From: Eledone cirrhosa
Taxonomy: Eukaryota
Assembly: GCA_964016885.1 (NCBI GenBank)
Contig: OZ024750.1
Span: 17,050,001 to 17,114,000 of the forward strand
Reading direction: 5' to 3'
Length of the DNA stretch: 64,000 nucleotides
Below the pieces are notes generated by a model that ran no database searches, had not been told where the DNA came from, and was given only the letters and a program-made list of their open reading frames with translations. Made by a program: the position numbers and the translations under genes. Below, piece by piece: positions 16,031 to 28,775 of this stretch. The stretch's first letter is position 1. Each line of letters starts with the position of its first letter.

Positions 16031-16320
16031 ATTAGAAAGTGAGGTTTTTTTTACAAAATGAAAAATAACCGAGGTGTCCTACAACGAGTGAAAGTATAAA
16101 GAAAAAAAGATGAAATCGAAAATGCAACTGGAGTCTTATTTAAAAAAATATATATATATTTATTTGGTTCCTTTACCGGTTTCGCAGTTCTTCTGCTTTT
16201 CAAAAGTAGAGTTGAGATGGAGGGTCTATGGTTTTTCTCACATGTGTGGTAAAGGAACCAAATAAATATATATATTTTTTTATAAATAAGACTCCAGTTG
16301 CATTTTCGATTTCATCTTTT
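16031..16320. mobile_element. Inverted PLE-like pLTR element, CCGG family
   Basis: Long arm plus inverted short arm in (TA)n; near copy at 28500-28775, partial at 17849-17975. Confidence 0.75.
16171..16206 (-). ncRNA. Minimal hammerhead with U3-A8 core
   Basis: ctt TTGAAAA gcag-aagaa-ctgc GAAA CCGG TA aag, followed by AATAAA. Confidence 0.7.
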
Positions 16321-17448
16321 TATATATATATATATATATATATATATATATATATATATATATATATATATATATTGTGTGTGTGTGTGAGATATGCATT
16401 CTTTTATTTTTATTTACATTGGTGAAGTATGATTTGAGGAAGCTTTGTGCATTGTTTCTACCAGGACCAGTGACCTCTTAGTGGCCTCCTCGCCAGTATT
16501 TTGCCTTAAGCTCGTTTCACACTTAGTGCCCAACAAAAAAACACTTACTAAGTAAGCTGTGTGAAGGCAATAAACTAGAACCTTGTCTACAACAAATGAA
16601 AACAAACCAACATTCTTATTGCTATACTAACAGAACAAATACAAAATATACATATATATCAACTCTATGAACTAAAACGTAAAGAGTGTTTAAACAGCAA
16701 GTATTTATACACCAACAACAACAAGCAAATATTAATGCACTAATATTTTATGTATAAACAGTAACAACGTAGTTATATATACACATGTGTGTGTATATAT
16801 CACCAACCACTTATAGATGCCCCGGTTTATTTAACGAGTATGATCAACAAGCAATGGGTAGAAGCTAGTGTGGTAGTGTCTATGAAGACGTTTGACCTTG
16901 GTGCAATTATATCAACAGAAATTCTCACGGCAAGTTTTCTCGTTGTCTTTAACTTAAAAATGAATTATTTCAAGTCCTACACTTTAGATCAGTGGTTTGA
17001 AAATTAAGTTTAAAAGAACCACTTCATTCTTCAAAACAATTGTTGAGTGTTGCGAGATAAGGGGATTTTTAATAAATTTTAATAAAATTATATTTTGAGA
17101 ATCATATGTTTTCCACGATTTTTTTAAAACAACCGCGTTAGGCTTTCGCAATAAAATACATTTGGGTCCCAGGTTTAGGGAAATCACGCGGGAAAATTAA
17201 ATTTAAGAAAAATGGTCGTTAACTGACAATTCATTTAACAAATAAGATGCTACTTAAATTTCACAGATACATCAAAGATTTTCATTACTTCATACCTAGA
17301 GTGGTACAACTGCAGGTTATATTCTTTTTTACAAAGTACACCGAGAATATAATTTACACACACACACACACATATATATATATATATATATATATATATA
17401 TATATATATATATATATATATATATATATATATATATATATATATATA

Positions 17449-17800
17449 ATGTAGGAGGTGAGTTTTATTGTAGTACAATAAAGCAATGCAGATATCGTAT
17501 AAGAAGCACTCTACAGTTTGTAGGACTGGAGTATACATAATATATAAGATCAAAAGATGGTTAAAGGAGTTCCATGTATTTTATTATGCGCATTTCAAAA
17601 ACAAACATCATCATGCAATAATATTTGTGTTTTCATCAGATAAAACAGGAGAACATGATATGAAGGCTAAAAAACACTTGTGGATAGTGCAGTTTTAAAT
17701 CAATGATGAAAACACAAATATTATTGCATGATGATGTTTGTTTTTGAAATGCGCATAATAAAATACATGGAACTCCTTTAACCATCTTTTGATCTTATAT
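17449..17800. mobile_element. Inverted PLE-like pLTR element, TGCGCA family
   Basis: Arms ~17542-17638 and 17704-17800 are reverse complements; (TA)n on both sides. Confidence 0.8.
17577..17647 (-). ncRNA. Type I hammerhead ribozyme (TGCGCA family)
   Basis: tgttttat CTGATGA long stem II GAAA TGCGCA TA ataaaata. Confidence 0.8.
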
Positions 17801-17883
17801 ATATATATATATATATATATATATATATATATATATATATATATATATGCGAGAAAAACCACAAACCCTCCATCTCAATTCTA

Positions 17884-17919
17884 CTTTTGAAAAGCATAAG
17901 AACTGTGAAACCGGTAAAG
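17884..17919 (+). ncRNA. Minimal hammerhead with U3-A8 core
   Basis: ctt TTGAAAA gca-taagaac-tgt GAAA CCGG TA aag. Confidence 0.65.
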
Positions 17920-18120
17920 GAAACAAATAAATATTCTTAAAAAGACTCCAGTTGCATTTTCGATTTCTTTTCCTTATATATATAATGAGTAAAACCAGTT
18001 GCAGATTCGCATCCGATTTTCGAAGGCTGTCAAAAAGTACTCCATGAGAGAATAGTTAATAAATTACTACTCAGAGTGAACACAATAAGTTAGGTAATAG
18101 TGACATATATATATATCTAT

Positions 18121-18485
18121 CTAAGGCGGGTAAAATTCCCGAGATCCATGGACGTGTTCTCTCCAGCGGTCTCTGTCCCTCATTATCGCTGCCATATCCT
18201 GCGTCTCCAACAGACCAGTGTCTGTCCTTAGGGCATCAACATACATTAACTCAGATGGTGGATGGGTGCTACACGAGAATGCTGGGGATGGCTCTGAACA
18301 TTAATCAGTATACACTGAGGATGAAAAACTCAGAGCTGTATGGGAGCATCCCAAAAGTCAGCTCAAAAGTGACACAGAGGAGACTGAGGTTAGCTGGACA
18401 TGCTGACCGACATCCAGAGTTGACATTGCACTCAGTGCTCCTGTGGGAGCCCCTACATGGACACACTAGAAGAGGAAGACAAAGA
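18121..18485 (-). mobile_element. 5'-truncated, 5'-inverted RTE-type LINE fragment
   Basis: Plus strand 18255-18485 gives DGCYTRML...RRLRLAGHADRH...LLWEPLHGHTRRGRQ; minus strand 18243-18121 gives the continuation YVDALRTDTGLLETQDMAAIMRDRDRWREHVHGSREFYPP*. Confidence 0.85.
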
Positions 18486-18502
18486 TATATATATATAAGA
18501 AA

Positions 18503-18688
18503 AGACGATCGACTTTCGTCAAATCGGACCGAGGGAACAATGTTTCCGTTGGTCTTTCCAATTGCTAATACTATCTATCGGTCGCAACTCCAGGTAGAAG
18601 GAGCAACGTGAAATAAAGTGTCTTGCTCAAGGACATAACGCATCACCTGGTCCAGGAATCGAACTCACAACCTTACGATTGCGAATCA
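18503..18688 (-). mobile_element. tRNA-derived SINE family B, 5'-truncated
   Basis: Near-identical to 29800-30017; B-box GAGTTCGATTCC then gtccttgagcaagacactt. Confidence 0.85.
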
Positions 18689-26541: not shown

Positions 26542-26589
26542 ATTGATTTTGATAAGTCCCAATAAGGGACGAAACAATTGTAAATCAAT
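26542..26589 (+). ncRNA. Type I hammerhead with U3-A8 core
   Basis: attgatt TTGATAA gtccc-aataa-gggac GAAA CAATTG TA aatcaat; perfect 7-bp stem I, 5-bp stem II, palindromic stem III, GUA site. Confidence 0.8.
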
Positions 26590-26711
26590 ATTTAATATGA
26601 AACCGTATTTGGTAATAATTTAATGAATACATATATATATGTGTGTGTGTGTGTGTGTGTGTGTGTGTGTGTTTATGTATATGTAAGTAAATATATATGT
26701 ACACACACAGC

Positions 26712-26882
26712 AGAATTGGTAGAGGGTCGGACATACTTTCCAGTATAGTTACGTCCCTTTACGATCTGAGTTCAAATCCCGCCGAGGTTAACTTTGCCTT
26801 TCATCCTTACGAGATCGATAAAATAAAGTACCAGTAATGTACTGCATAATTGCTGGCCTTGTGCCAAAAGTAGAAACAATTA
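26712..26882 (+). mobile_element. SINE family A
   Basis: B-box GAGTTCAAATCC plus family body; other partial copies at 26380-26490 and 27308-27413. Confidence 0.8.
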
Positions 26883-26915
26883 TATATATAATTAAGTATA
26901 AATTATACGTTTAGA

Positions 26916-27059
26916 CAGTGCCGGATTTACCATTGAGCTTAGGTCGCCAGGAGGATCCCATCTTCAAGCCCCTAAACATTTTTACGATTAATTTTTTTAA
27001 TGTTTGAGGCTTCATAACTTAATTGGCACAGGACCTCATTTGTCCTAAATCCGGCACTG
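26916..27059. mobile_element. hAT-type MITE
   Basis: 14-bp TIRs CAGTGCCGGATTTA/TAAATCCGGCACTG; 8-bp TSD cgtttaga/cgtttaca. Confidence 0.85.
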
Positions 27060-27448
27060 CGTTTACATTATTTATAGTCCAGCCGATATCCAATCACTCC
27101 ATTATTTTAGAGAAATCGCATGTGGTGAATACAGATCTACAAGTCAGAATGTACACTATGCGTTAAATAGTAGGAAAAAAGGCTTAGTATGGGAACATAT
27201 ATAAATCAGGATAGAACCAATTTAAAACTAGCTGTTGGAACTAGCTGGTGAAGCGGCAAGAGCTCAGTTCTCGGGGCCCACGCTTTATAATATACATACA
27301 TACACACAATCCCACCGAGGTTAACTTTGCCTTTCATCTTTACGGGCTCGATAAAATAAAGTACCAGTAATGCACTGGTATTTGCTGGCCTTGTGCCATA
27401 AGTAGAAACAATTATATATATATATATATATATATTTAATATAAAAAT

Positions 27449-27499
27449 GTCTTCTACAGGAATAGAACTGTTTCATTCGGGAGAAACCATCAGGAAGCC
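27449..27499 (-). ncRNA. Hammerhead (CAG family), A9G mutant copy
   Basis: ggcttc CTGATGG tttctcccgaat GAAA cag-ttctattc-ctg TA gaagac; homolog of 57888-57938. Confidence 0.6.
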
Positions 27500-28499
27500 C
27501 TGTATATATATATATATATATATATATATATATATTGTTATACTTTGGGAGGGTCATGTTGCCAATAAGAAACACACGCACCAGTTGCTTTCACTTCAAT
27601 TTATTATAATAAATTTATAATAAATTTATAAATTTATAAATTTATAAATTTATAAATTTCTGGTTGGTTGGTTGGTTCCACAACCAGATAGTTGTTTATA
27701 TATATTGGCAACATGACCCTCCCAAAGTATAACAATATCGGTTTCAACACACGATTTCAGATAAAGAATCTTGCTAAACAAATTCAGAAACGAAATATAT
27801 ATATATATATATAAACGTTTGTATATGTATAATAAAGCCAAAACAATGCAGGTATGGACATAGAATAAAGAATGCAAATGCAAAAGATATTGTTGACAAT
27901 TAGTCTTTTAGCTTAGATTTATTTAAATGTCCTTAATTTTCGAGATAATATCTCTTGTTCGGTGGGAAGTAAAGCAGTTAAACCAGTGTTCTAAATAGCT
28001 TGCCAAGTCAATATATAATTACAACAGTGACATAAACAGGTACTAAAGTTTCGTTGGGTTCTGGATCCCAACTCATTCAGCCTGTCAAATTTTCTAATGG
28101 CAGACTGAATGAGTTGGGGTCCAATTAATTATACTAAACTCGTCCTATGGACTGAGTACTCTTACCCTTGGATATTTCTACCAAACTTTTACTACAGTAT
28201 ATGTATGTATGTATGTATGTATGTATGTATGTATGTATGTATGTATGTATGTATGTATGTATGTATGTGTGTGTGCGTGTGTGTGTGCGTGTGCGTGTGC
28301 GTGTGTATACATGTATATTAGACTGTGGCATTATGGGGTACTTCTTTGATTTAGTTATCATATCAGCCCCAGTACATATTTTTCAAGTTTTATATTTATT
28401 TTTGTTGAACCGTTAAACTACGTGACTTAAGCGTAAACACACACATGCTAGCGTGCAAACACACACAGACACACACACACACATATATATATATATATA

Positions 28500-28775
28500 T
28501 ATTAGAAAGTGAGGTTTTTTTAAAAATGAAAAATAACCGAGGTGTCCTACACGAGTGAATGTATAAAGAAAAAAAGATGAAATCGAAAATGCAGCTGGAG
28601 TCTTATTTTTTTTAAAATATATATTTATTTGGTTCCTTTACCGGTTTCGCAGTTCTGCTTTTCAAAAGTAGAGTTGAGATGGAGGGTCTGTGGTTTTTCT
28701 CCCGGTAAAGGAACCAAATAAATATATATATATTTTTTTAAATAAGACTCCAGTTGCATTTTCGATTTCATTTTT
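28500..28775. mobile_element. CCGG-family inverted pLTR element with U3-A8 hammerhead at 28636-28668 (-)
   Basis: ctt TTGAAAA gcagaactgc GAAA CCGG TA aag; same layout as 16031-16320. Confidence 0.75.

What the first reader, a model, noticed from the sequence alone, without database searches (positions are those of the whole stretch)
16171..28668. Two families use the compensatory U3-A8 hammerhead core (UUGAAAA, UUGAUAA)
Seen: three CCGG-family copies (16171-16206, 17884-17919, 28636-28668) read TTGAAAA, and the unrelated 26542-26589 motif reads TTGATAA in place of CTGANGA, with the stems intact. Established: positions 3 and 8 form a tertiary Watson-Crick pair (C3-G8) and U3-A8 is a tolerated swap. 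Inference: a double change fixed in a family and repeated in a second one argues for selection on catalysis. Standard CUGANGA searches would miss these.
Basis: partly seen in the sequence, partly recalled or inferred. Interest (0 to 1): 0.75.

Follow-up and report, generated by a model that had tools for sequence, protein, structure and literature searches.

The report
Known hammerhead variant in Penelope retroelements
The four flagged motifs are hammerhead-shaped RNA motifs whose swapped U-A core pair is the norm in their repeat families, three of them in the end repeat of a Penelope-type jumping gene, where they likely cut the element's RNA slowly as pairs; this swapped core is already published for such elements, so the finding is ordinary.

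Summary
Observation real and coordinates exact: four type-I hammerhead motifs with a U3-A8 core; none in 100 shuffles. The swap is fixed in both families. Family A: 5,069 of 5,154 genome matches are U3-A8, none C3-G8. Family B: 51 of 54 copies. Family A lies in the pseudo-LTR of a Penelope-like retroelement with RT and C-terminal GIY-YIG. No ORF was found for B. Across repeat families, cores were C3-G8 (5) or U3-A8 (3), apart from one degraded pair. That fits selection to keep the 3-8 pair, not an advantage of U-A, since both changes also follow AT mutation bias. Not new: Cervera and De la Pena 2014 report about 1,300 U3-A8 Penelope hammerheads and list the same UUGAUAA and UUGAAAA cores; Perreault 2011 reports natural U3-A8. 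The scan noted it before in this and other genomes. One copy has a damaged stem II; two are predicted to be locked in fold-back hairpins. Cleavage is untested.

The parts
16171..16206 (-). Family A hammerhead, U3-A8 core (U3 at 16203, predicted cut after A17 at 16174)
16026..16246 (-). Solo pseudo-LTR of the family A Penelope-like element, starting at the likely transcription start 43 nt before the core; promoter absent
   Evidence: blastn to full-length copy L155, 89% over 230 nt
16247..16330 (+). Inverted partial arm of the same pseudo-LTR; predicted to pair with the 3' half of the hammerhead in read-through RNA
17884..17919 (+). Family A hammerhead, U3-A8 core, older copy with damaged stem II
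17847..17980 (+). Diverged solo pseudo-LTR of family A (75-79% identity), next to (TA)n
28636..28668 (-). Family A hammerhead, U3-A8 core, variant with the shorter loop II
28496..28701 (-). Solo pseudo-LTR of family A
   Evidence: 88% over 222 nt
28702..28781 (+). Inverted partial arm starting at the CCGG palindrome; predicted fold-back over the cut site
26542..26589 (+). Family B hammerhead, U3-A8 core UUGAUAA, 7-bp stem I, 5-bp stem II, palindromic stem III
26505..26629 (+). Truncated copy of the ~550-nt family B repeat, ending at a TA/TG microsatellite
17585..17639 (-). Contrast case: family C hammerhead with the canonical C3-G8 core (also 43074-43128 -, 60623-60677 -; related type 60884-60932 +)

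Best explanation
The motifs are type-I hammerheads with a short palindromic stem III and a family-fixed U3-A8 core, the three CCGG copies sitting in the pseudo-LTR of a Penelope-like retrotransposon and the fourth likely in an orphan pseudo-LTR of another, and they likely cut the element's RNA slowly and only as pairs. Shown: family A flanks an RT + GIY-YIG ORF as two direct repeats; U3-A8 is the norm in families A, B and a third family D; genomic copies drift by single changes. Inferred: in a full-length transcript two hammerheads pair through the ACCGGU palindrome and cleave after A17. U3-A8 is a functionally tolerated replacement of C3-G8, reached along the AT mutation bias and kept because the 3-8 pair must remain. 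The window's own copies are short promoter-less fragments and are likely inert.
For: Census of A: 5,154 matches with positions 3, 7, 8 free; 45 not U3 (28 C, 9 G, 8 A; all A8); 40 not A8 (22 G, 9 U, 9 C; all U3); 0 C3-G8. Loci picked by protein rather than by motif: 27 of 27 motifs U3-A8, in 24 of 33 loci. Full-length copy L155 has motifs at 108 and 4820 around frameshifted 410 + 775 aa frames; L153 has a 791-aa frame with RVT_1 (E 2.5e-7) and GIY-YIG (E 5.9e-6). B: 21 of 21 by pattern; 51 U3-A8, 2 C3-A8, 1 U3-G8, 0 C3-G8 of 54 copies. Between two B subfamilies 1 of 34 core and stem positions differ, against 4 of 9 free positions (N7, loops, H17) and 42 of 198 flank positions, p=0.005. D (about 52-54% protein identity to A) keeps UUGANAA...GAAACCGGUA in 33 of 33 motifs, and the best A-D local alignment falls on the hammerhead in register. 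A subfamily of A has a 4-bp stem I (CCUU/AAGG; 11 copies in hand). Predicted dimers pair through stem III for B, the CCUU subfamily and two of the three window A copies. Precedent: PMC4209133, PMC3088659.
Against: No cleavage data; no raw RNA reads were available. With a 7-bp stem I the B subfamily test weakens to p=0.07. The 5-bp definition was chosen after seeing the copies, and the test used 31 of 54 copies. The A-D alignment score is not above shuffles (22 of 200 reach it). For the common A form the hammerhead fold is 3.9 kcal/mol above the minimum, its predicted dimer does not form stem I, and the 28665 copy's dimer is an alternative duplex through the self-complementary CUUUUGAAAAG. Copy 5' ends cluster 35-50 nt before the core (73 of 144), with 3 of 144 near the cut site and none at it; this sample is biased because most loci were picked through the core. 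No ORF was found for B within 1.5 kb of any locus in hand. No Rfam hammerhead match at gathering score.
Confidence: 0.7

Rival explanations
1. The U3-A8 motif in family A (and D) is a catalytically dead or near-dead relic. It is kept for another job just downstream of the transcription start (RT binding, dimerisation, promoter element) or simply inherited.
For: 3-bp stem I in A, 2-bp in D; D has extra U on both sides of stem II; competing folds; most copies span the cut site, so they derive from uncut RNA (biased sample); Cervera 2014 found low activity for minimal Penelope hammerheads and did not exclude other functions.
Against: All catalytic positions, not only the palindrome, are kept between A and D and between the B subfamilies, while N7 and loops change. 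2-3-bp stems I are described in published Penelope hammerheads.
Confidence: 0.17
2. U3-A8 was positively selected, more than once, as a rate-tuning variant that lets part of the RNA escape cutting and be copied (strong form of the first reader's inference).
For: At least three, probably four, families carry it (A, B, D, and F with 3 copies). A and D are young and abundant (5,154 matches; 1,392 candidates). It also occurs in Schistosoma Penelope elements.
Against: C3-G8 families C and E are also young and common in this genome. Both changes (C to T, G to A) follow the usual AT bias (established knowledge). The tree has no supported branch, so one origin cannot be excluded.
Confidence: 0.12
3. 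The motifs are chance look-alikes or mutant copies of CUGANGA families.
For: No Rfam hit at gathering score; short AT-rich motif.
Against: 0 in 100 shuffles; 0 of 5,154 family A matches and 0 of 54 B copies are C3-G8; position in the pseudo-LTR as expected.
Confidence: 0.01

Closest known systems
U3-A8 minimal hammerheads of Schistosoma mansoni Penelope-like (Cercyon) elements; Cervera & De la Pena 2014, PMC4209133 (parts 1-2 of 4 of the text read, plus supplement file 2 passages; file 1 not searchable)
   Same: Type I, in pseudo-LTRs, U3-A8 core, about 1,300 hits in that genome; the supplement lists cores UUGAUAA(A) and UUGAAAA(A); short stem I; G10.1-C11.1; palindromic stem III; mostly solo or inverted copies.
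   Different: [quoted passage not shown]
Natural U3-A8 core variants; Perreault et al. 2011, PMC3088659 (passages read)
   Same: States that C3 and G8 pair, covary to U3 and A8 in several natural hammerheads, and that such variants had been shown active in vitro.
   Different: The passages seen do not concern Penelope elements or this genome.
C-terminal EN+ Penelope-like elements of the Neptune/Nematis type; Craig et al. 2021, PMC8557442 (passages read)
   Same: RT plus C-terminal GIY-YIG, CX2-5CxxC linker, CCHH motif, pseudo-LTRs with a hammerhead, inverted 5'-truncated arms, (TA)n targets.
   Different: Clade not placed against reference RTs here; that paper's core-string search used CUGANGA and would miss these cores.
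Animal non-LTR retrozymes (search listing only for PMC7229834; one passage of bioRxiv 10.64898/2026.07.22.740005)
   Same: Non-coding repeats with type-I hammerheads tied to Penelope elements; B is non-coding in all copies seen.
   Different: B copies seen are solo or inverted and are not bounded by the cut site; tandem arrays were not seen but were not searched for systematically.

Membership tests
Hammerhead ribozyme, type I | Core U4 G5 A6 N7 A9, G12 A13 A14, A15.1-U16.1, H17 around three stems | tested here: met
   All four motifs; stem II damaged in 17884-17919
Hammerhead ribozyme, type I | Watson-Crick pair between positions 3 and 8 | tested here: met
   U3-A8 in 5,069 of 5,154 A matches and 51 of 54 B copies; the pair itself is per PMC3088659
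Hammerhead ribozyme, type I | Self-cleavage after H17 | not testable with these tools
   No assay; only contigs and no raw RNA reads offered
Rfam hammerhead families | Score at or above gathering threshold | tested here: not met
   0 matches in L210 and L155; the window-wide list showed 150 of 315 rows, none a hammerhead
Penelope-element hammerheads (Cervera 2014) | Located in both pseudo-LTRs flanking the RT-EN ORF | tested here: met
   Family A: L155 motifs at 108 and 4820 around the ORF
Penelope-element hammerheads (Cervera 2014) | Same feature for family B (linked ORF) | tested here: inconclusive
   No Penelope ORF of its own within 1.5 kb in the B loci; the one neighbour belongs to family D
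Penelope-element hammerheads (Cervera 2014) | Palindromic, unstable stem III suited to dimers; G10.1-C11.1 | tested here: met
   ACCGGU in A, ACGAUCGU or ACAAUUGU in B; dimer folds
Strict min-HHR consensus (Cervera 2014) | [quoted passage not shown] | tested here: not met
   Absent in A and B, present in D; A and B match the paper's small-palindromic-helix-III variants instead
C-terminal EN+ Penelope-like element (Neptune/Nematis type) | RT followed by GIY-YIG endonuclease | tested here: met
   RVT_1 at 312-455 and GIY-YIG at 698-786 of the 791-aa frame
C-terminal EN+ Penelope-like element (Neptune/Nematis type) | CX2-5CxxC linker and CCHH motif | tested here: met
   CX4CxxC, then two Cys between GIY and YIG and two later His, read from the translation; definition
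Neptune clade | Placement on an RT tree with reference elements | not tested
   No reference set in hand; the local tree has no supported branch
Non-LTR retrozyme (family B) | Tandem monomers bounded by hammerheads | tested here: inconclusive
   Copies in hand are solo or inverted, with ends at microsatellites; no genome-wide test

The most novel reading that the evidence does not exclude
In this genome U3-A8 arose several times in Penelope-like elements as a selected slow core, letting RNA from the pseudo-LTR's own TATA promoter escape cutting and spawn thousands of ~210-nt solo copies. Matched young U3-A8 (A, D) and C3-G8 (C, E) families would then form a natural test of what Penelope hammerheads do.
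Probability: 0.1. Interest if true: 0.55.

Novelty: new member of a known kind. Interest (0 to 1): 0.2.

Why it matters
Practically, hammerhead searches should allow U3-A8: in this genome more than 5,000 motifs of one family would be missed by CUGANGA. That lesson is already in print. The role of hammerheads in Penelope elements is still open (PMC8557442), and young, intact U3-A8 and C3-G8 families side by side offer material for an assay. The finding itself adds examples, not a new principle.

Tried and rejected
Rfam over the window: microsatellite-driven miRNA hits in the 150 rows shown; uninformative. Repeat finder: swamped by tandem arrays. Protein tree of 8 rows: no supported branch, so no claim on the number of origins. 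Search for B's ORF by tblastn with the family A protein over all B loci: none. The RT fragment just downstream of L091's motif belongs to another inserted element (36% identity), not to A. An intron spanning the hammerhead (GTGAG near the 5' end) was considered; a TATA box about 30 nt upstream makes a transcription start the simpler reading, but neither was tested. The bacterial promoter scan is not applicable. Rows left out of the family count: one 2-copy degraded group with A3 and six singletons; the non-U3-A8 copies of A in that call are inflated because they were fetched on purpose. Papers not held and therefore not read: Przybilski & Hammann 2007, Nelson & Uhlenbeck 2008, Lunse et al. 2016; rates for 3-8 mutants in them could bear on activity. 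Literature searches with no useful hit. The search for octopus + hammerhead ribozyme + Penelope gave one paper, so these particular families may be undescribed, within that library only.
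Full report
Setting. The window lies on contig C10 of a 3.0-Gb animal genome and is rich in microsatellites. From the look of its repeats it is probably a cephalopod; this is recalled and was not tested.

Observation. The four motifs are at exactly the stated coordinates. A scan with positions 3, 7 and 8 free found eight type-I hammerhead shapes with a palindromic stem III: four U3-A8 and four C3-G8. In 100 shuffles there were no U3-A8 hits and 0.02 hits of any core on average. The copy at 17884 has a G.U at 10.1-11.1 and a broken fourth pair, so its stem II is not intact. 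Family A has only a 3-bp stem I.

Family A census. A genome pattern with 3, 7 and 8 free gave 5,154 matches. Forty-five lack U3, and all of these keep A8. Forty lack A8, and all keep U3. So 5,069 are U3-A8 and none is C3-G8. The exceptions are scattered and mostly transitions (28 C3, 22 G8). Independent drift predicts 0.12 doubles (my arithmetic). The pattern fixes the upstream bases and so omits a subfamily with a 4-bp stem I, whose 11 copies in hand are all U3-A8. Among 33 loci chosen through the protein, 24 held the motif in range, and 27 of 27 motifs were U3-A8.

What family A is. Long copies continue upstream into a GIY-YIG frame. L153 holds a 791-aa frame with RVT_1 and GIY-YIG, a CX4CxxC linker and a CCHH motif. 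By the definitions in PMC8557442 these mark a Neptune/Nematis-type Penelope-like element. L155 is a full-length unit with the hammerhead in both direct repeats. Copy 5' ends cluster 35-50 nt before the core (73 of 144), about 30 nt after a TATAAAA, so a transcription start there is likely. The three window copies are solo pieces beginning at about that point. Two carry an inverted arm, and the predicted read-through RNA buries the cut site in a long hairpin (z -21 and -17).

Family B. It is an older repeat of about 550 nt with microsatellites at both ends. Cores are U3-A8 in 21 of 21 pattern matches and in 51 of 54 distinct copies, with no C3-G8. Comparing 24 younger with 7 older copies (31 of the 54), 1 of 34 core and stem positions differs, against 4 of 9 free positions and 42 of 198 flank positions (p=0.005). 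Counting stem I as 7 bp gives p=0.07. No ORF of its own was found, so its Penelope origin is inferred from its shape, inverted pairs and targets. It has no DNA similarity to A.

Other families. Family D is a young relative of A (about 52-54% protein identity). It keeps UUGANAA and GAAACCGGUA in 33 of 33 motifs in 30 loci, with unrelated flanks. The A-D alignment falls in register on the hammerhead but its score is reached by 22 of 200 shuffles. Family C is C3-G8 in 37 of 37 motifs and belongs to a Hydra-type frame (CxCX5C, no CCHH). Family E is C3-G8 and flanks a Neptune-like frame 39-46% identical to A. Over 968 kb in hand, groups with two or more copies were 5 C3-G8, 3 U3-A8 and one degraded pair; shuffles gave 0, 1 and 0 hits. 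These loci are not a random sample, and the families are not independent. The tree could not order them.

How it likely works. Shown: position, family fixation, covariation between families, a palindromic stem III. Predicted: dimers through that palindrome, with stem I formed for B and for the 4-bp subfamily of A but not for the common A form. Inferred from PMC4209133 and PMC6765202: slow cleavage as dimers that processes tandem transcripts. The data fit purifying selection on the 3-8 pair. They do not show that U-A is favoured, because C to T and G to A are also the changes that AT-biased mutation gives (established knowledge). Against activity: competing folds in A, and copies that nearly all span the cut site (biased sample). 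No RNA evidence could be had.

Comparison with what is known. Cervera and De la Pena 2014 describe U3-A8 in S. mansoni Penelope hammerheads, missed by their first descriptor, with about 1,300 hits. Their supplement lists both UUGAUAA(A) and UUGAAAA(A) (one supplementary file could not be searched). Perreault et al. 2011 report natural U3-A8 and cite earlier in vitro activity. The primary mutagenesis papers were not held. Earlier notes of this scan reached the same reading elsewhere in this genome and in other genomes; they are leads, not support.

Verdict. Real and well observed. Interest 0.2.

Noticed in passing
L155:4480-4785 and L091:6405-6710 (+): The family A pseudo-LTR has a polymerase II-like promoter: GGCGCGAAA (E2F-like), CCAAT boxes, and TATAAAA about 30 nt before the clustered 5' ends. 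The motif names are recalled; this would suit expression in dividing cells.
   Followed up: partly
L098:1827-1895 (-), L179-L208: Family D: a young, abundant relative of A with a U3-A8 core, a 2-bp stem I and an extra U on each side of stem II. Family E (L274:866 -, 5412 +) has the same extra U on each side with a C3-G8 core.
   Followed up: partly
L274:266 (+), L083, L095: A further U3-A8 family (F; core UUGAGAA, GCCC/GGGC stem II, CGUACG palindrome), 3 copies seen.
   Followed up: no
window 17585-17639, 43074-43128, 60623-60677, 60884-60932: Canonical-core hammerheads with a long stem II; family C belongs to a Hydra-type Penelope element.
   Followed up: partly
L155:288-3754: The full-length A element is split into overlapping 410-aa and 775-aa frames, with the same overlap in L154; a shared frameshift or a two-frame design.
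   Followed up: no
family B loci: The stem III palindrome varies among CGAUCG, CAAUUG, CGAUUG and CGUUCG; CpG decay keeps it self-complementary.
   Followed up: partly
window 26377-26490, 26710-26890, 27308-27443: Copies of an abundant short repeat with tRNA-like boxes flank the B motif (likely a SINE; label recalled).
   Followed up: no
window 30569-33897 and 45619-51325: Long minisatellite arrays (21-nt and 39-nt units) with extreme strand skew.
   Followed up: no
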